This document shows, in pieces, positions 28,499 through 51,512 of a DNA stretch of 64,000 bases. The stretch's first letter is position 1. Each line of letters starts with the position of its first letter. A program made the position numbers and the translations under genes. This DNA comes from an uncultured Gammaproteobacteria bacterium. Its GTDB lineage: Bacteria > Patescibacteriota > Microgenomatia > UBA8517. Under the pieces are notes generated by a model. The model saw only the letters and a program-made list of their open reading frames with translations, was not told where the DNA came from and searched no databases. Location: NCBI GenBank assembly GCA_964540475.1, contig CAZIMC010000001.1, positions 204,056 to 268,055 of the forward strand, written 5' to 3'.

Positions 28499-28607
28499 CG
28501 TGGGTCTTGACAAACCTCATAAATTACATATAATTCTGTTTAGGCGTAACTAAGTTTACGCTCGTCCCGCGTCTAAAGCGGGAATTTTCTGTGTAAAGAG
28601 GTAAATA

Positions 28608-35751: not shown

Positions 35752-36204
35752 ATGCCAACAGTAAATCAATTAGTTCGAAAAGGTCGTAAACAAATAAAGA
35801 AAAAGGAAAGCACCACTTCTCTTAAAAAGTGGTTTAGTGCAAAAGATAGGAAATTTTCCGAATTTTCATCCCCTTTAAAACGAGGGGTAGTTCTTTCTGT
35901 GCGCACAATGACACCCAGAAAGCCAAATTCGGCTCTTAGAAAAGTTGCCAGAGTTAGACTTTCTAATAAGCAGGAAATTACTGCTTATATTCCCGGCGAA
36001 GGCCATGAATTGGCAGAACATTCAATTGTCTTAGTTCGCGGTGGTAAGGTTAAGGATTTGGCAGGAGTTAAATTCCATGTGGTGAGAGGAAAATATGACA
36101 CAACTGGGGTTGTGGGAAGACAGCGTGGTAGAAGCAAATACGGAACAAAGAAAGGAGGCGGTGGCGCAGCTCCAAAAGCAGCTGGTGCGCCAGCAGAAGG
36201 ATAA
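35752..36204 (+). CDS. rpsL: 30S ribosomal protein S12 with a short N-terminal insertion and a Gly/Ala-rich C-terminal extension
   Basis: [11 protein letters not shown] start, [24 protein letters not shown]. Confidence 0.95.
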
Positions 36205-36704: not shown

Positions 36705-37727
36705 ATGACAGCAGACAATGTTCCTAGCAAACGCCCCGATCTTGACATAGAGTTGACCCCCACAGGTATTCGAAATTTAATGGGTGAAATACAAAAGCGT
36801 GGTTTTCATCCATTAACCGAAGAAGGAGAGAATAAAGAAATTGCCAACTTACAAGCTCATGAATTTTTAAATTTTGTACAGGTGGTGCTTGATAGAATTG
36901 GAGTAAGACAACACGAGGTGGACAAAACTTTAGCCCTTGATTTGGGTGGGCAGGATCCAGACTGGGATAAAATTTTAAAAACAATATGGAACAAACGAGC
37001 GAAGGTTTGGGGTTGGGTCGAAACCCCAACCAACTATTTTGCCACCTTTAGCACTTTAGTGGAGCACTTTGAAACCGACAACAATCAACGTAAGAAAGAG
37101 AGAATAGCTAGCTTAGGCTCTGGCCCAGGATTGTACGAGGCATACCTTATGTATTTGCTCTCACGAGTAGGAGGCCATCAAAATGTAGAAATGTATTGTG
37201 TTGATTTTGCTCGCGAGATGACTGCAATCAATTCACGAATATTAAAATTGTATAAAGATGAAAGCGGCAAAATGATACAAAACACTAGAGCTTTAACTGG
37301 CGATATGACGAATTTAGATTTTCCTGATAATCATTTTAATCAAATTATATGCAATAACGCACTACAATGGACCCAAAACTGGAAAGACGCAGTTTCTGAA
37401 ATGGCACGTGTTCTTAATCCCCAAGGCCTTGGAGTTTTGTATATTTTTATTAATCGCCATCCTATGAGATTGATTAATCAGGAAACTAACGAAGTTATGT
37501 TGAGTATTGGGGGTATTGATCCAGCAGAGTTATTTGATGCACTGGAAGAAAAGAACTTCCAAATTGAGCGAACCAGGCAATATCGCACCGCAAAAGGTTT
37601 GGGCCAAATGGGTGGAACATCAGACAGAATGTTCATTAAAGCAAGACTGAGCAAAGACGGAACTGTTAATAGTTGGAGGCAAGCTAATATTGGATATTCG
37701 GTGTCAACCTGGGAATCTGGTAGGTGA
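36705..37727 (+). CDS. Class I SAM-dependent methyltransferase with an unrecognised ~135-aa N-domain, inserted between rpsG and fusA
   Basis: Motif I SLGSGPGLYEAYL, acidic motif II (CVDFA), motif IV-like NNALQW; 340 aa. Confidence 0.7.
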   Translation: MTADNVPSKRPDLDIELTPTGIRNLMGEIQKRGFHPLTEEGENKEIANLQAHEFLNFVQVVLDRIGVRQHEVDKTLALDLGGQDPDWDKILKTIWNKRAKVWGWVETPTNYFATFSTLVEHFETDNNQRKKERIASLGSGPGLYEAYLMYLLSRVGGHQNVEMYCVDFAREMTAINSRILKLYKDESGKMIQNTRALTGDMTNLDFPDNHFNQIICNNALQWTQNWKDAVSEMARVLNPQGLGVLYIFINRHPMRLINQETNEVMLSIGGIDPAELFDALEEKNFQIERTRQYRTAKGLGQMGGTSDRMFIKARLSKDGTVNSWRQANIGYSVSTWESGR

Positions 37728-37767
37728 GTTGTTGATTTAGATATTGAACACTGTTAAAATTGTTAAA

Positions 37768-37792
37768 GCTTCCGATAGGAAGCGATTTTTTT
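37768..37792 (+). terminator. Intrinsic terminator after the methyltransferase gene (GCTTCC-GATA-GGAAGC plus T7)
   Basis: Perfect 6-bp GC-rich stem, 4-nt loop, then GATTTTTTT. Confidence 0.6.
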
Positions 37793-40041: not shown

Positions 40042-40132
40042 AATTAGGTATTGACATAGCAATTCGGGCTTTAATATAATACGGACACTGAGGGCAATTT
40101 AAGCCCTCGTTTTATTGTAAAAGCTTACGGCT

Positions 40133-41386: not shown

Positions 41387-41695
41387 ATGCCAGTAGGTAG
41401 ACTTAGAGTCAAGCTCAAAAGCTATGACCACCGTCTTATAGACGAAGTGGCAGGCAAGATATTAGATACAGCTCTGGCAACTGGTGCAAAAGTAAAAGGC
41501 CCCATTCCTCTTCCTACTCAAAGAAGTATAATCTCTGTTAAGGAATCTCCGTTCAAGCATAAAGATGCGCAAGAACATTTTGAAATTTTAGTCCATAAAA
41601 GACTAATCGATCTTTTAGACCCTTCTGAGCGTACAATTGATTCTCTAAGCAACCTCGACCTCCCCGCAGGAGTAAGTATTGAAATAAAAATGTAA
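41387..41695 (+). CDS. rpsJ: 30S ribosomal protein S10
   Basis: 102 aa; RLRVKLKSYDHRLIDEV... Confidence 0.95.
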   Translation: MPVGRLRVKLKSYDHRLIDEVAGKILDTALATGAKVKGPIPLPTQRSIISVKESPFKHKDAQEHFEILVHKRLIDLLDPSERTIDSLSNLDLPAGVSIEIKM

Positions 41696-41725
41696 TCTTT
41701 GGTCATATGACTTATTATAAGTAAT

Positions 41726-42799
41726 ATGTCAGAAGATGGCGCATCAAAGTATATTCAGGTAACTCATTCGGATCTTGAGCCAGATATAAAAATAACAGAA
41801 GCCGAACTTGCGCCTGATATACAAATAATGAATGACGAGCTTGCTAATTCCCCAGAAATTAGAATAACACGCAAGGATCTCGCAAGAAATCCACTCGAGT
41901 GGCTTCAAGCAACCTATCGCGACACAAGAGAAAGACTTACAGATAATTTGAATTGGTGGGGGAATATGGCCAAACAAAAGCTAGATGCTTACAAAAGAGT
42001 AGATCGCGAACGCAGAGACGTAGAAGGCATTGTAGTTACTATACTTAATACCCGTGGGGAAAAGGAACCGCAATCATGGGAAACATTAACAGAAAGAGAT
42101 TTGGGTGATGCAGAAAGCGAAGCAATCGGCTTAACTAAAGAAGAGCTGCTAAGTGAACTTACGCTCACATTGGAAGAGTTGGACAGGGGTGTTCGGCCCG
42201 ATCGTACTGCAATTCAACAGTATATTCGAGAACTTTCACAACTACACGAAAGACAAGCTGCAGAAGCAAATAGAATCTATGGTAGCAGAGAATTTTCCAC
42301 ACCCATCAGAATGGAGAACCACCGGAGTCAACAGTATTTGTTTCGGGCGAAAGACGGTAGATCCATATCTACCTGTGTAATTGCCTCAACCCTAAATGGT
42401 TTAACTGCGCTTGGTATTGCCCAATCCCAAGAAACCGAAGACACAGTAATTGACGCCATTGGAGGAGTTCGGGAATTTGACGAGAGGGGTTATCTTGAAA
42501 TGGGCAAGGTGGAAGGTTATTTAAGAGAAAGAGGTACACGCTTATCAAGATCAGGTAATATACTGGAGTTGTTGCAGAGTCTGGAGAATGGAGGAGTTGC
42601 AATTATCGCATATGGAGGTCACGCAAGATTAATTTCCGGAGCTGAGTCGCAAAATGGTCAGGTTATGTTACGTGAACACGATCCACTGAATACGAATGTA
42701 CGATTAGTGCCAGTTTCAGAGATGGTCACGAGGGTTAACAGTACTGAGATGTATCTTAATTTGTTACTTATCGAGAGAAATCCTTCATCTGTTCGTTAG
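41726..42799 (+). CDS. Hypothetical protein inserted between rpsJ and rplC: N-terminal 9-11-aa tandem repeats and a C-terminal putative Cys/His/Asp (papain-like?) domain
   Basis: Repeats DLEPDIKIT / ELAPDIQIM / ELANSPEIRIT. C-terminal candidate catalytic residues STCVIAST ... AYGGHARLISG ... REHDP; 357 aa. Confidence 0.5.
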   Translation: MSEDGASKYIQVTHSDLEPDIKITEAELAPDIQIMNDELANSPEIRITRKDLARNPLEWLQATYRDTRERLTDNLNWWGNMAKQKLDAYKRVDRERRDVEGIVVTILNTRGEKEPQSWETLTERDLGDAESEAIGLTKEELLSELTLTLEELDRGVRPDRTAIQQYIRELSQLHERQAAEANRIYGSREFSTPIRMENHRSQQYLFRAKDGRSISTCVIASTLNGLTALGIAQSQETEDTVIDAIGGVREFDERGYLEMGKVEGYLRERGTRLSRSGNILELLQSLENGGVAIIAYGGHARLISGAESQNGQVMLREHDPLNTNVRLVPVSEMVTRVNSTEMYLNLLLIERNPSSVR

Positions 42800-42835
42800 A
42801 TTCTGCCTTGTTCTATTGCGTAAGTTAGGTTCATT

Positions 42836-42844
42836 TGATATAAT
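42836..42844 (+). promoter_or_regulatory. Extended -10 element TGATATAAT in the leader upstream of rplC
   Basis: TGnTATAAT read directly. Confidence 0.3.
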
Positions 42845-42907
42845 TTCTGCTACATGAGAGTGGTTTTAAACCTTGACCACTAGTTACGTGCTAGATGTGC
42901 TTAAGTA

Positions 42908-42932
42908 AAGCGCCTCTGGGCGCTTTTTTGTT
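42908..42932 (+). terminator. Intrinsic terminator/attenuator hairpin 18 nt upstream of the rplC start
   Basis: AAGCGCC-TCTG-GGCGCTT perfect 7-bp stem, then TTTTTTGTT. Confidence 0.55.
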
Positions 42933-42949
42933 GGATTTCAAAGCTAAAA

Positions 42950-43744
42950 ATGTTAAACGCAATGATCGGATCAAAAGTCGGAATGAATCAGTCCTTTATT
43001 GAAGGGAGAAGGATTCCAGTGACCAAAATTGTTGTTGGTCCCTGTGTGGTTACACAAGTCAAAAAACAGGAAAAGGATGGTTATTGGGCAATACAACTAG
43101 GATTTGGAAGCAGAAAAGCCAAGCATACTTCCAAAGCTCTTCAAGGACACTTCAAGGAAATTCAAAGTTCAAAAATCAAAAATCAAAATGAAAAGACTAA
43201 GACTACAAATTACCCCCGACACTTAAGAGAAATTAGACTAGAAAAAGAGCCCGACTTTAAAGTTGGAGACGTGATAAACGTCTCCGATGTTTTTAAGAGA
43301 GGGGATATTATTGCCGTTACCGGAGTTTCAAAAGGCAAGGGTTTTGCAGGAGGAGTTAAAAGATGGGGTTTTGCAGGTGGCTCAAGGACTCATGGCCAGA
43401 GCGACCGTGAACGTGCACCTGGTTCAATTGGTCAAGGAACAACTCCCGGAAGAGTATTAAAAGGCAAGAAGATGGCCGGCAAAATGGGAGATGAGCAGGT
43501 AACTGTTAAAAATCTTCAGATTGTAGCTGTCAATCATGACGTTAACGAAATTGAAATAAGCGGACCAGTACCCGGAAGACCGGAAGGACTGTTAATTATT
43601 CGTAAAATCGCTGAAGGTAAATTAGAGGGTATTCAGGAAGTTCAAGCACAAGTGGTTGAGGGTGAAGGTGGAGAAGAAGCGGGCGAAGGAGCAGAAAGCT
43701 CGGAGAAACCACAAGAAGTAAAGGAGGAACAGGCTAATGGCTAA
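42950..43744 (+). CDS. rplC: 50S ribosomal protein L3 with an internal insertion and an acidic C-terminal tail
   Basis: FAGGVKRWGFAGGSRTHGQSDRERAPGSIG core. Confidence 0.95.
   Translation: MLNAMIGSKVGMNQSFIEGRRIPVTKIVVGPCVVTQVKKQEKDGYWAIQLGFGSRKAKHTSKALQGHFKEIQSSKIKNQNEKTKTTNYPRHLREIRLEKEPDFKVGDVINVSDVFKRGDIIAVTGVSKGKGFAGGVKRWGFAGGSRTHGQSDRERAPGSIGQGTTPGRVLKGKKMAGKMGDEQVTVKNLQIVAVNHDVNEIEISGPVPGRPEGLLIIRKIAEGKLEGIQEVQAQVVEGEGGEEAGEGAESSEKPQEVKEEQANG
43169..43189 (+). repeat. Three tandem heptamers TCAAAAA/TCAAAAT within the rplC insertion
   Basis: Read directly. Confidence 0.8.
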
Positions 43745-44450
43745 AGCGGATCTTTATACAATGAAGGGAAATAAAACAAAGGTTATTAACTTGCCTTCGG
43801 ATTTTGGCCAAGAGATCAATATGTCTCTTGTGGCACAAGCAATGAGGGTTTATGAAGATCGCAGCCACGTTGGTTTTGCGAAGACAAAAACACGAGGGGA
43901 AGTTATTCGAACTAAAAAGAAAATTTACAGACAGAAGGGAACCGGTGGTGCAAGACACGGTGCGCGTTCTGCTCCAATCTATGTAGGCGGGGGAATCGCA
44001 CACGGGCCCAGACCAGTTAAAAGGGTTTTAAGCTTGCCTGCTAAATTAAAAAGAAAGGCACTTAATATGGCACTTAGCTCCAAGGCAGCCGATGGTGGAC
44101 TGATTGTTGTGGAAGGATTGTCTAAAGTAAAGAAGACTAAAGAAGTTTCAGAATTTCTTAAAAAAGCCAGCAAAGATATGAATTTCAAAAGATTTACATT
44201 TGTTTTAGCCGATGACAAAAAGGATACTGCCGGTTTCACCAGAAATCTTAAAAATACCAATACATATTTCAAGAAAGATCTTAATGCTTACAATATATAT
44301 CTTGGGGGTTTGGTAATTCTGGATGCTGATTTGGTTGGTAACATTAAAACCGAGAACACTACCAGTAAAACTAAAATGAAAACTAGTGCCAAACTAAAGG
44401 ATAAATCAGGTAAAAAAGTTACAAATGCAACAAGGAGGACAACTAAATGA
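43737..44450 (+). CDS. rplD: 50S ribosomal protein L4
   Basis: GTGGARHGARSAPIYVGGGIAHGP. Confidence 0.95.
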   Translation: MAKADLYTMKGNKTKVINLPSDFGQEINMSLVAQAMRVYEDRSHVGFAKTKTRGEVIRTKKKIYRQKGTGGARHGARSAPIYVGGGIAHGPRPVKRVLSLPAKLKRKALNMALSSKAADGGLIVVEGLSKVKKTKEVSEFLKKASKDMNFKRFTFVLADDKKDTAGFTRNLKNTNTYFKKDLNAYNIYLGGLVILDADLVGNIKTENTTSKTKMKTSAKLKDKSGKKVTNATRRTTK

Positions 44451-45754: not shown

Positions 45755-46210
45755 ATGGAATTTATATCTGAACAAAAGTTCTTATTGTTATCACCTAGAA
45801 AAGTGAGACCTGTTGTTGATGTTATAAGAAAAATGAGCCCAACTTATGCATTGGCTGTGTTGCCGCAGGTTAATAAGAAAGCTGCAGATTCAATTTCGAA
45901 GGTGATAAAGTCTGCCATTGCGAATGCAAAGGTCAAAGGTGTAAGCGAAAGTGATTTATCTTTTAAGGAAATTCAAATAAATGAAGGACCGAGACTTAAG
46001 AGAGGTAGGCCGGTTTCAAGAGGAATGTGGCACCCTGTTAAAAAAAGAATGAGCCATATTCGAATTGTGTTGCAAACAGTGGATAGACCACAGGCTACTG
46101 CCAAGATGGTTTCCAAAGATCCGGCAAAAAGCGACAAGAAGAAGGTTAATAATGATAAGACAGTTGAGTTAAAGAAGACCAAAACTAAGAAAGGAGCTAA
46201 GCAGGTTTAG
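45755..46210 (+). CDS. rplV: 50S ribosomal protein L22 with a Lys-rich tail
   Basis: Position and sequence. Confidence 0.93.
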   Translation: MEFISEQKFLLLSPRKVRPVVDVIRKMSPTYALAVLPQVNKKAADSISKVIKSAIANAKVKGVSESDLSFKEIQINEGPRLKRGRPVSRGMWHPVKKRMSHIRIVLQTVDRPQATAKMVSKDPAKSDKKKVNNDKTVELKKTKTKKGAKQV

Positions 46211-50532: not shown

Positions 50533-51027
50533 ATGCAATATCAAGGAGGAGGCAACAAATACGCAATGAATACAATCAAGGAATTTGAGGAAACAGTTGT
50601 GCAGATTAACAGAATCTCTAAAAAGACTAAAGGTGGAAATCAAATAAGATTTTCTGCTTTAGTAGTTGTGGGTGACAAAAAAGGTAAAGTGGGTGTTGGT
50701 CTGTCGAAGGCGGGGGATGTGAGAAATGCGATCAGAAAAGCAATATCATTTGCCAAGCGTCGAATGATTGAAGTGCCTTTGGTGGGTTCCACAATTCCCC
50801 ATTCAACGAGAGAGAAATTCTCTGCAGCCAAAGTTCTTTTGAAACCAGCTCCTCCTGGCTCAGGTATCATAGCCGGGGGACCGATGAGAGTAGTGCTCGA
50901 GGCTGCTGGAGTAAAAGATGCTGTTGGCAAGATCTTGGGTACTAGTAACAAAATCTCGAATGTATATGCTACCATCAAGGCACTGGAGACAATCGCCGAA
51001 ATAGAAAGACTCAAAAAGGAAGCTTAA
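50533..51027 (+). CDS. rpsE: 30S ribosomal protein S5
   Basis: RFSALVVVGDKKGKVGVGLSKAGDVRNAIRKA. Confidence 0.92.
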   Translation: MQYQGGGNKYAMNTIKEFEETVVQINRISKKTKGGNQIRFSALVVVGDKKGKVGVGLSKAGDVRNAIRKAISFAKRRMIEVPLVGSTIPHSTREKFSAAKVLLKPAPPGSGIIAGGPMRVVLEAAGVKDAVGKILGTSNKISNVYATIKALETIAEIERLKKEA

Positions 51028-51032
51028 TAAAT

Positions 51033-51512
51033 ATGACTAGAACATTACCCAAAATAGTACAAAGATCTAAAAAAAGAACGGGCCGTGGCTACGGAAGCGG
51101 GAAAGGTGGCCATACTGTTGGTAAAGGACAAAAAGGTCAAAAGACACGCGGTAGAATAAGTGTAATTTTTGAGGGAGTAAAGGTAAGGAAAAGCCTGATC
51201 AAAAGACTTCCGTTTAAACGAGGTAAGGGGAAATTTGGACCCAGCGGAAAACCAGTTATTGTAAAGCTGGCATCTCTTGAGATCCTTCCTAAAGGAGCCA
51301 AGGTGGATACCGAAACACTAATTAAAAACGGAATTGTTAATAAGGAAGATATTGATAGAGTAGGTGTAAAAGTGTTAGGCAATAGTGAGATTACTAAAGC
51401 CCTAACAATTTTAGTACCTATATCGAGATCTGCCGCCAGGAGAGTAGAGACTGCAGGTGGGAAGGTTGAAGTGTCTAATAAAAAGCTAGGCAATAATAAA
51501 GACCTGGGTTAA
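51033..51512 (+). CDS. rplO: 50S ribosomal protein L15 (no rpmD/L30 gene before it)
   Basis: GRGYGSGKGGHTVGKGQKGQKTR. Confidence 0.9.
   Translation: MTRTLPKIVQRSKKRTGRGYGSGKGGHTVGKGQKGQKTRGRISVIFEGVKVRKSLIKRLPFKRGKGKFGPSGKPVIVKLASLEILPKGAKVDTETLIKNGIVNKEDIDRVGVKVLGNSEITKALTILVPISRSAARRVETAGGKVEVSNKKLGNNKDLG

What the first reader, a model, noticed from the sequence alone, without database searches (positions are those of the whole stretch)
41726..42799. Lineage-specific 357-aa gene inserted at the almost universally conserved rpsJ-rplC junction of the S10 operon
In bacteria rplC follows rpsJ directly. Here a 1.07-kb gene sits between them, only 30 nt after rpsJ, so it is probably co-transcribed with the str/S10 genes. 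Its N-terminus carries about four degenerate 9-11-aa tandem repeats, (D/E)L(E/A)PDI(K/Q)I(T/M), also visible as ~27-nt DNA repeats at 41770-41880. Its C-terminal half has an ordered Cys (STCVIAST), His (AYGGHARLISG), Asp/His (REHDP) arrangement reminiscent of papain-like/C39-like peptidase or acyltransferase folds. A protein of unknown function expressed stoichiometrically with ribosomal proteins could be a ribosome-associated or translation-factor-modifying enzyme.
Basis: partly seen in the sequence, partly recalled or inferred. Interest (0 to 1): 0.7.

Follow-up and report, generated by a model that had tools for sequence, protein, structure and literature searches.

The report
Accessory C39-like cysteine peptidase beside rpsJ
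The gene between rpsJ and rplC is a real, rare papain-type (C39-like) cysteine protease gene, but in this lineage that spot is the boundary between two transcription units where unrelated genes often land, so its position says little about a ribosomal role.

Summary

The ribosomal reading fails. Seven homolog loci sit in unrelated contexts, and none of 80 related rplC loci carries the gene. In this CPR-like clade rplC has its own conserved promoter (TTGCNN-17-TGATATAAT) and a roughly 100-nt leader ending in a terminator hairpin. The site just upstream holds varied cargo elsewhere (metallophosphoesterase, Hsp70-like, FtsJ, GIY-YIG, PaREP1), or rpsJ is unlinked. The gene is probably the last cistron of a tuf-rpsJ unit. 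The rplC leader, which has no Rfam match, is the more interesting by-product.

The parts
40051..40109 (+). Consensus promoter TTGACA-18-TATAAT (40051-40080) followed by a hairpin plus T-run (40089-40109), upstream of tuf. It is the likely start of the tuf-rpsJ-X transcription unit.
   Evidence: Pattern scan gave a 12/12 promoter match; sequence read. Function is inferred, not shown.
41387..41695 (+). rpsJ (ribosomal protein S10, 102 aa)
   Evidence: ORF list. It is 42-85% identical to the rpsJ found upstream of rplC in related loci.
41696..41725 (+). 30-nt rpsJ-X spacer with no terminator-like hairpin and no convincing promoter
41726..42799 (+). Gene X, 357 aa: an accessory C39-like (clan CA) cysteine peptidase
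41753..41881 (+). Four tandem IxITxx(D/E)L units (aa 10-52) inside the acidic N-terminus (aa 1-70), which is predicted to be disordered
   Evidence: TRF period 33 nt. Conserved in homologs. pLDDT below 50. Family-wide enrichment against shuffles.
41936..42283 (+). Helical linker or possible pro-region (aa 71-186). Its last long helix (aa 160-186) belongs to the conserved family core.
   Evidence: AF2 secondary structure. Profile matches begin at about profile position 150-180 in most family members.
42284..42787 (+). Papain-like catalytic domain (aa 187-354), pLDDT mostly above 90
42329..42331 (+). Gln202 codon (CAA), candidate oxyanion-hole residue
   Evidence: Q in 69 of 79 family sequences. 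Its geometry was not measured.
42374..42376 (+). Cys217 codon (TGT), predicted nucleophile at the start of helix 217-228
   Evidence: 86/86 conserved; helix position
42620..42622 (+). His299 codon (CAC), predicted general base
   Evidence: 89/89 conserved. It aligns with the His of the C39-like peptidase 3erv.
42680..42682 (+). Asp319 codon (GAT), predicted third triad residue in the DP motif
   Evidence: 82 D, 6 N and 1 E of 89; Pro320 is 86/89. It aligns with the DP of 3erv.
42816..42844 (+). rplC promoter: -35 TTGCGT (42816-42821), 17-nt spacer, extended -10 TGATATAAT (42836-42844)
   Evidence: TTGCNN-17-TGATATAAT was read by eye in the window and 5 type-A loci. An extended -10 at the same register is present in all 10.
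42859..42881 (+). Leader hairpin P1 (AGUGGUU...GACCACU), conserved in sequence among type-A leaders
42888..42902 (+). GUGCUAGAUGUGCUU, predicted anti-terminator strand that pairs with the terminator arms
   Evidence: When each RNA is truncated before the terminator's 3' arm, the fold pairs the 5' arm with this element in 10 of 10 type-A leaders.
42907..42932 (+). Intrinsic-terminator-like hairpin AAAGCGCC-UCUG-GGCGCUUU plus T-run, 18 nt before the rplC ATG. It is the likely end of the tuf-rpsJ-X unit and the attenuator of the rplC unit.
   Evidence: Only generic terminator fragments match Rfam.
42950..43744 (+). rplC (L3, 264 aa), first gene of the downstream ribosomal-protein unit

Best explanation
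X encodes a soluble, probably cytoplasmic cysteine peptidase. It belongs to a rare, uncurated branch of the C39-like part of the papain superfamily (clan CA).

Mechanism (inferred from the fold and conservation). Cys217, at the N-terminus of a helix, is the nucleophile. His299, on the facing beta-sheet, is the general base. Asp319 orients the His. Gln202 probably forms the oxyanion hole.

Architecture. The catalytic domain is preceded by a helical linker and by an acidic, disordered N-terminus. That N-terminus carries four IxITxx(D/E)L units. The motif travels with the domain across the family. I infer that it is a cis-acting regulatory, pseudo-substrate or docking element, as in zymogen-like control.

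Genomic setting. X is an accessory cargo gene. It sits at the 3' end of a tuf-rpsJ transcription unit, immediately upstream of rplC's own promoter and leader-terminator. This operon boundary repeatedly accepts unrelated genes in this CPR-like clade.

Expression (inferred). Transcription most likely reads through from the tuf promoter and stops at the rplC-leader hairpin. Nothing indicates a ribosome-related substrate.
For: Real gene. There are 6 homologs at 36-49% identity with 47 invariant columns. Composition and codon usage match the neighbouring genes.

Family. The profile search finds 84 representatives, nearly all through the C-terminal domain. Cys is 86/86, His 89/89, Asp 82/89 and Gln 69/79.

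Sequence link. 17 of 53 family domains hit Peptidase_C39_2 (best 1.2e-9), 9 hit Peptidase_C70 and 4 hit Phytochelatin. The HAxLISG...DP motif aligns with the His and Asp region of 3erv.

Localisation. In a crude Kyte-Doolittle scan, only 1 of 82 members has a hydrophobic segment at its N-terminus and 9 have one anywhere.

Motif. It is enriched about 8-fold over shuffles, and also among distant members: 32 motifs against 6.1 +/- 2.5.

Cargo status. Seven homolog loci are in unrelated contexts. No X homolog is present in 80 rplC loci. Different genes occupy the same site in L013, L015, L024, L046, L065, L066, L067, L071 and L083. rpsJ is unlinked from rplC in L021, L022, L025, L030, L058, L063 and L087.

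Transcription units. No hairpin lies between tuf and X. A conserved promoter and a terminator lie between X and rplC.
Against: There is no biochemical evidence. X itself matches no Pfam, NCBIfam or PDB sequence model, so the family link is transitive and structural.

Catalytic geometry could not be measured because no model coordinates were available. Gln202 lies 15 residues before the Cys, against 6 in papain and C39 (from my own knowledge of those families).

The fold is also used by isopeptidases, deubiquitinase-like enzymes, acyltransferases and toxins, so 'peptidase' is the majority reading, not a proven one.

AF2 gives no docking of the N-terminal motifs (pLDDT below 50), so their regulatory role is pure inference.

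Co-transcription and termination rest on sequence patterns only. A target in the translation apparatus cannot be excluded by genomics alone.
Confidence: 0.6

Rival explanations
1. X is a translation-linked enzyme. It would be a protease or modifier acting on a ribosomal protein, EF-Tu or nascent chains, kept in the tuf/S10 cluster so that it is co-expressed with its targets.
For: X starts 30 nt after rpsJ with no intervening terminator, and downstream of a consensus tuf promoter. Its codon usage matches the neighbouring genes.
Against: None of seven homolog loci is near a translation gene. X is absent from 80 related rplC loci. The same site carries unrelated cargo in relatives. A second unrelated cargo gene, a methyltransferase, sits in the equivalent position after rpsG in this window.
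Confidence: 0.05
2. X is a toxin or effector. A papain-fold domain would be delivered to, or act against, another cell (the host of an episymbiont, or a competitor), and the disordered repeat N-terminus would serve as a targeting or translocation signal.
Against: No conserved adjacent immunity gene was found: the small ORFs downstream in L001 and L008 show no obvious similarity when their translations are read side by side. There is no signal peptide and no known secretion-system neighbour. There is no PADLOC or PHROG hit.
Confidence: 0.15
3. X is a papain-fold enzyme that is not a classical protease. It could be a cell-wall endo(iso)peptidase (like PeiR, or the Peptidase_C39_2 domains of endolysins), or a gamma-glutamyl or acyl transferase (like phytochelatin synthase or BtrH).
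Confidence: 0.18
4. The ORF is a chance or decaying reading frame in an expanded intergenic region.
For: X has no database annotation and no family model.
Against: The frame is open for 357 codons. Homologs at 36-49% identity conserve the full length and 47 invariant columns. A confident fold is predicted.
Confidence: 0.02

Closest known systems
Pfam Peptidase_C39_2 (PF13529), e.g. the Bacillus anthracis C39-like peptidase PDB 3erv
   Different: X itself scores below every threshold. X has a conserved preceding helix plus a TPIxMxxHxxQxY segment, and N-terminal IxITxxDL repeats, neither of which the Pfam C39_2 model covers. Only 15% of the structurally aligned residues are identical.
Peptidase C39 double-glycine leader proteases (ComA and PCAT1 peptidase domains, LahT150; PDB 5xe8, 8vp3, 6mpz)
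   Different: X is not fused to an ABC transporter. No Gly-Gly follows the motif. No bacteriocin-like precursor gene is nearby. The candidate oxyanion Gln lies 15 residues before the Cys, not 6. The motif resemblance is a lead, not a test.
PeiR pseudomurein endoisopeptidase (C71; PDB 8z4h), staphopains (C47) and AvrRpt2 (C70)
   Different: There is no detectable sequence similarity for X itself. Substrates and localisation differ: a cell wall, secreted proteases and a type III effector, against a protein with no signal peptide.
E. coli S10 operon leader (L4-mediated transcription attenuation) and the other ribosomal-protein leaders in Rfam. This is the closest known system for the X-rplC spacer, not for X.
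   Same: It is a 5' leader of an operon that encodes L3, L4 and the following proteins. It ends in an intrinsic-terminator hairpin just before the first gene, and alternative pairing is predicted.
   Different: It lies upstream of rplC, not rpsJ. No Rfam model matches. It comes in three unrelated sequence types within the clade. The ligand is unknown.

Membership tests
Clan CA (papain-like) cysteine peptidases | Papain-like alpha/beta fold, with the nucleophile at the N-terminus of a helix facing a beta-sheet that bears the His | tested here: met
Clan CA (papain-like) cysteine peptidases | Catalytic Cys, then His, then Asn or Asp, in that order and conserved | tested here: met
   Cys is 86/86, His is 89/89, and Asp is 82 D, 6 N and 1 E of 89.
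Clan CA (papain-like) cysteine peptidases | Oxyanion-hole Gln a few residues N-terminal of the Cys | tested here: inconclusive
   Gln202 is conserved in 69 of 79 sequences but lies 13-15 residues upstream of the Cys. No coordinates were available to check its position.
Clan CA (papain-like) cysteine peptidases | Thiol-dependent hydrolysis of peptide or isopeptide bonds | not testable with these tools
   This needs enzyme assays with the C217A and H299A controls.
Pfam Peptidase_C39_2 (PF13529) | Score at or above the curated gathering threshold (24 bits) | tested here: not met
   X has no hit even at E <= 1. 17 of 53 relatives hit (best E 1.2e-9), and P0075 scores 21 bits. X is therefore a superfamily relative, not a member by Pfam's criterion.
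Peptidase C39 bacteriocin-processing domain (PF03412) | N-terminal domain of an ABC exporter, with a double-glycine leader substrate encoded nearby | tested here: not met
   X is a stand-alone 357-aa protein with no transmembrane or ABC domain. The neighbours are rpsJ and rplC. Only 1 of 53 relatives hits PF03412 weakly.
Conserved component of the str/S10 ribosomal gene cluster | Conserved synteny with ribosomal protein genes across homologs and relatives | tested here: not met
   None of the 7 homolog loci is ribosomal. None of the 80 rplC loci contains an X homolog.
Anti-phage defence or phage protein families | Match to PADLOC or PHROG models, or presence on viral contigs | tested here: not met
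Ribosomal-protein leader or attenuator (for the 42800-42949 spacer) | Conserved 5' UTR element upstream of a ribosomal protein operon, with a terminator and an alternative structure | tested here: met
   Among the distinct rplC loci read, a terminator-like hairpin was found only where the rpsJ-rplC gap exceeds 27 nt or rpsJ was not detected upstream, and never where the gap is 11-27 nt. It lies 11-48 nt before rplC in most of them and about 110-125 nt in four (L019, L021, L024, L046). A -10-like element is present in most. Anti-terminator pairing is predicted in 10 of 10 type-A leaders. Compensatory pairs are seen in type C.
Ribosomal-protein leader or attenuator (for the 42800-42949 spacer) | Match to a described Rfam leader family, or binding of a ribosomal protein | tested here: not met
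   There is no Rfam hit for the window or for 15 related loci. Protein binding cannot be tested here.

The most novel reading that the evidence does not exclude
The more novel object here is the site rather than the gene. In a CPR-like clade the S10 cluster is split at rpsJ|rplC. There, rplC is driven by its own conserved promoter through an undescribed attenuator leader. The leader occurs in three structural types, each ending in a terminator with a competing anti-terminator, and is plausibly sensed by L4 or L3. The few nucleotides between the rpsJ stop codon and that promoter act as a recurrent landing pad. Cargo genes there, X among them, would ride on read-through from the tuf-rpsJ unit and borrow the leader's terminator.

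For X itself, the unexcluded novel reading is this: its IxITxxDL repeats are built-in, leader-like pseudo-substrates of its C39-like domain, which would make it a self-regulated zymogen.
Probability: 0.35. Interest if true: 0.55.

Novelty: new member of a known kind. Interest (0 to 1): 0.3.

Why it matters
For X, the result defines a small, unannotated branch of the C39-like cysteine peptidases. It has a clear catalytic triad and an unusual N-terminal repeat motif, found in candidate-phyla-type bacteria whose proteomes are largely uncharacterised. That gives a concrete handle for biochemistry, but nothing that changes current views.

For genome scans, it is a caution. 'Inserted in a universal operon junction' is not evidence of a linked function when the junction is an operon boundary in that lineage.

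The by-product could matter more. A conserved promoter plus attenuator leader sits in front of rplC, with no Rfam match, and similar promoter-then-hairpin modules sit before rpoB, fusA and tuf. If confirmed, these would add a new ribosomal-protein regulatory RNA and would show how ribosomal gene clusters are organised in reduced genomes.

Tried and rejected
Searches for X that found nothing:
- Pfam, NCBIfam, PHROGs and PADLOC on X gave no significant hit.
- A sequence and profile search of the PDB gave nothing for A1. For A2 it gave only a weak, sub-significant 3erv alignment at E 0.24.
- NCBIfam on 53 family domains gave only noise.
- A viral-contig scan found no relatives. The second scan, with A2, could not be run because the alignment has no conserved stretch.

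Unavailable or uninformative:
- The AFDB50 fold library was not available.
- An exact look-up of X's own contig found nothing on record.
- Contexts of P0002, P0016, P0020 and P0021 came from contigs too short to be informative.

Ideas rejected:
- A mobile-element origin for X. No direct or inverted repeats flank it, there is no integrase nearby, and its composition matches the host.
- A conserved small downstream partner gene. The 64-aa (L001) and 65-aa (L008) ORFs show no obvious similarity when their translations are read side by side; no alignment was run.
- The P0081 match to the N-terminal repeats, a 1640-aa protein with APTISISQAALSV repeats, was judged low-complexity similarity and ignored.
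- An own promoter for X in the 30-nt spacer. There is only a poor TATAAG with no -35.
- A leader peptide within the rplC leader (short ORFs starting at the conserved RTGGTT) was considered but not pursued. The apparent GGAG lies 0-1 nt from the start codon, and the conservation is equally explained by the P1 stem.

Other:
- The MAFFT alignment of type-A leaders misaligns the P1 3' arm. I therefore did not build a covariance model or run pair counts on it, and used per-sequence folding instead.
- The literature search found no description of this family, or of an rplC leader in these bacteria.

Full report
OBSERVATION

The ORF exists as described. It runs from 41726 to 42799 on the + strand, starts with ATG and encodes 357 aa. 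It lies between rpsJ (41387-41695) and rplC (42950-43744). The rpsJ-X spacer is 30 nt and has no hairpin plus T-run.

The N-terminal repeats are real, but their period is 33 nt (11 aa). TRF reports 41774-41844 with 2.2 copies and 79% matches. At protein level there are four IxITxx(D/E)L units, at aa 10-17, 21-28, 32-39 and 45-52.

WHAT THE PROTEIN IS

No curated model matches X in Pfam, NCBIfam, PHROGs or PADLOC, and no PDB sequence matches it.

The gene is nonetheless under selection.
- A search of 5.8 billion proteins returns six homologs at 36-49% identity, nearly all of the same length.
- Their alignment has 47 invariant columns, including Cys217, His299 and Asp319.
- X's GC content, GC3 and codon usage are indistinguishable from those of neighbouring genes.

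A profile of these sequences, searched against 1.84 billion cluster representatives, finds only 84 proteins (24 at E <= 1e-30). Almost all match through profile positions of about 170-352, which is the C-terminal domain plus the helix preceding it.

Conservation in that set:
- Cys217: 86/86
- His299: 89/89
- Asp319: 82 D, 6 N and 1 E of 89
- Pro320: 86/89
- Asn224: 83/87
- Gln202: 69/79

Structure prediction (AlphaFold2 on the 7-sequence alignment, pTM 0.76):
- aa 1-70 are disordered (pLDDT below 50);
- aa 75-186 form a helical region;
- aa 187-354 form an alpha/beta domain, mostly above pLDDT 90, with Cys217 at the start of a helix and His299 on a beta-strand.

Fold comparison:
- Foldseek against the PDB and against viral models gives almost only papain-like proteases among its best hits.

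At sequence level the link is transitive.
- 17 of 53 family domains hit Pfam Peptidase_C39_2 (best E 1.2e-9), 9 hit Peptidase_C70, 4 hit Phytochelatin, and one each hit C39 and C78.
- The family's HAxLISG...DP motif aligns with the His and Asp-Pro of 3erv.

X is therefore a member of a rare, uncurated branch of the C39-like papain superfamily.

THE N-TERMINUS

Hardly any family member has a hydrophobic N-terminus in a crude Kyte-Doolittle scan: 1 of 82, and 9 have such a segment anywhere. The proteins therefore look cytoplasmic, or are exported by some non-classical route.

The motif [ILV]x[ILV][TSNEDM]xx[DE][ILFM] occurs 64 times in the N-terminal parts of 31 of 75 non-redundant members. Shuffles give 7.5 +/- 2.8 (maximum 17 in 500). 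Among the 66 distant members alone there are 32 motifs, against 6.1 +/- 2.5. The motif is thus coupled to the domain across the family.

The motif resembles the first half of the double-glycine leader consensus LSXXELXXIXGG, which C39 peptidases recognise (PMC1538908). However, no Gly-Gly follows it, and AF2 does not dock it onto the domain. I treat a cis-regulatory or pseudo-substrate role as an inference only.

WHY THE LOCATION IS NOT INFORMATIVE

Homolog contexts are unrelated to one another and to translation:
- L001/L002: SEC-C protein, X, a small ORF, then a serine recombinase;
- L003-L005: MFS transporter, zeta-toxin-like kinase, X, then an ABC transporter;
- L008: next to ATP synthase genes;
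- L009: next to a LysM protein;
- L010: in a Candidatus Saccharibacteria MAG, between a radical-SAM-like gene and a large membrane protein.

A metagenome scan with the window's rplC gave 80 loci. None encodes an X homolog. The loci fall into two groups.
- Where rpsJ and rplC are 11-27 nt apart, which is the usual arrangement in bacteria, there is no promoter-like or terminator-like element.
- A hairpin plus T-run upstream of rplC was found only in loci whose gap exceeds 27 nt or where rpsJ was not detected upstream. These include the window's closest relatives (rplC 44-67% identical, gap 136 nt or more). The hairpin ends 11-48 nt before the ATG in most of them and about 110-125 nt before it in four, and most also have a TATAAT (usually TG-extended) about 105-175 nt upstream of rplC. 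A few loci in this group showed no hairpin (L025/L026, L080, L087).

In the window and five other type-A loci I read the promoter as TTGCNN-17-TGATATAAT, and an extended -10 at the same register is present in all ten type-A examples. In the window that is -35 at 42816-42821 and -10 at 42836-42844.

In relatives without cargo, the rpsJ stop codon lies 1-10 nt from the -35 element. In the window, X and about 46 nt of flanking sequence lie exactly between the two.

The same slot holds other genes elsewhere:
- metallophosphoesterases (L013, L015, L083);
- a NUDIX/AEP-like protein plus an FtsJ methyltransferase (L015);
- Hsp70-like proteins (L067, L071);
- a GIY-YIG nuclease (L066);
- PaREP1 (L046);
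- unknown ORFs (L024, L065).
Some of these are on the opposite strand.

In L021, L022, L025, L030, L058, L063 and L087, rplC with its leader follows entirely unrelated genes, and no rpsJ lies within the 0.9-4 kb of upstream sequence available.

So in this clade rpsJ|rplC is an operon boundary and an insertion hot spot, not a conserved intra-operon junction.

The window itself looks like a candidate-phyla-radiation genome, because S5 is followed directly by L15 with no L30 gene. This taxonomic reading is an inference.

TRANSCRIPTION MODEL (INFERRED)

A perfect TTGACA-18-TATAAT lies upstream of tuf (40051-40080). No hairpin plus T-run occurs from there to 42907.

X is therefore most simply the third cistron of a tuf-rpsJ-X unit that ends at the hairpin at 42907-42926. 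That hairpin lies downstream of the rplC promoter.

A second cargo gene has the same arrangement. A 340-aa class I methyltransferase (36705-37727) follows rpsG by 19 nt. It precedes a promoter-like element plus hairpin (37732-37783) upstream of fusA.

THE rplC LEADER (BY-PRODUCT)

From the predicted start at about 42851, the leader contains:
- a conserved hairpin (42859-42881);
- a GUGC...GUGCUU element (42888-42902);
- the terminator (42907-42932).

In 10 of 10 type-A leaders, folding the RNA truncated before the terminator's 3' arm pairs the 5' arm with the upstream GUGC element. That is an anti-terminator.

Two other sequence types occupy the same position in more distant relatives. In type C, RNAalifold finds compensatory changes in an internal stem (CG in 8 sequences and UA in 4) and in the terminator.

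No Rfam 15 family matches the window or 15 related loci. The catalogue of ribosomal leaders that I read lists none for these bacteria (PMC7247131).

This looks like an undescribed ribosomal-protein attenuator. The ligand is unknown.

VERDICT

- The enzymatic-fold interpretation is supported.
- The ribosome-linked interpretation is not supported.
- X is a new member of a known kind: a C39-like clan CA peptidase with a distinctive repeat-bearing N-terminus. It was acquired as cargo at a permissive operon boundary.
- Interest in X itself is modest. The junction architecture and the leader deserve a separate look.

Noticed in passing
window 42800-42949, with L011-L024 (type A), L023/L027-L029/L032/L033/L044 (type B) and L058-L089 (type C): A conserved promoter plus a roughly 100-nt leader ending in a terminator hairpin sits immediately upstream of rplC, with predicted anti-terminator pairing. 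It is found only in loci whose rpsJ-rplC gap exceeds 27 nt or that lack a nearby rpsJ, and never where the gap is 11-27 nt. It comes in three sequence types, and no Rfam family matches. It is a candidate new ribosomal-protein attenuator.
   Followed up: partly
related loci L013, L015, L024, L046, L065, L066, L067, L071, L083; also L021, L022, L025, L030, L058, L063, L087: The slot between the rpsJ stop codon and the rplC promoter carries different unrelated genes in different genomes: metallophosphoesterase, NUDIX/AEP-like, FtsJ, Hsp70-like, GIY-YIG and PaREP1. In other loci rpsJ is not linked to rplC at all. The site is a lineage-wide insertion hot spot.
   Followed up: partly
window 36705-37727 (+): A second non-ribosomal gene sits in the str cluster. 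It is a 340-aa class I SAM methyltransferase (Methyltransf_11/25, E 2e-12) that starts 19 nt after rpsG and ends 145 nt before fusA. Its position relative to a downstream promoter-hairpin module is the same as that of X.
   Followed up: partly
window 28507-28583, 37732-37790, 40051-40116: Promoter-then-hairpin-plus-T-run modules lie upstream of rpoB (perfect TTGACA-16-TATAAT), fusA and tuf (perfect TTGACA-18-TATAAT). For fusA and tuf the hairpin begins at about the predicted transcription start. The order, with the promoter before the terminator-like hairpin, is unusual and unexplained.
   Followed up: no
window 50533-51512: The S5 gene (50533-51027) is followed after 5 nt by the L15 gene (51033-51512), with no L30 gene between them. 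This is consistent with a candidate-phyla-radiation (Patescibacteria) genome. In addition, rpoB is preceded by a YceG-family gene and sortase genes rather than by rplJ-rplL.
   Followed up: partly
window 35752-36204, 42950-43744, 43737-44450, 45755-46210: Several ribosomal proteins carry low-complexity C-terminal extensions. S12 ends in [17 protein letters not shown]3 has an acidic E/G-rich tail, and L4 and L22 have Lys-rich tails.
   Followed up: no
window 41753-41881 and family members P0020, P0021, P0028, P0030, P0046, P0072, P0078, P0085: The IxITxx(D/E)L motif recurs N-terminal to the peptidase domain even in distant members with otherwise unrelated N-termini, including a 1919-aa protein that also has a PP2C phosphatase domain. 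It resembles the first half of the double-glycine leader consensus.
   Followed up: partly
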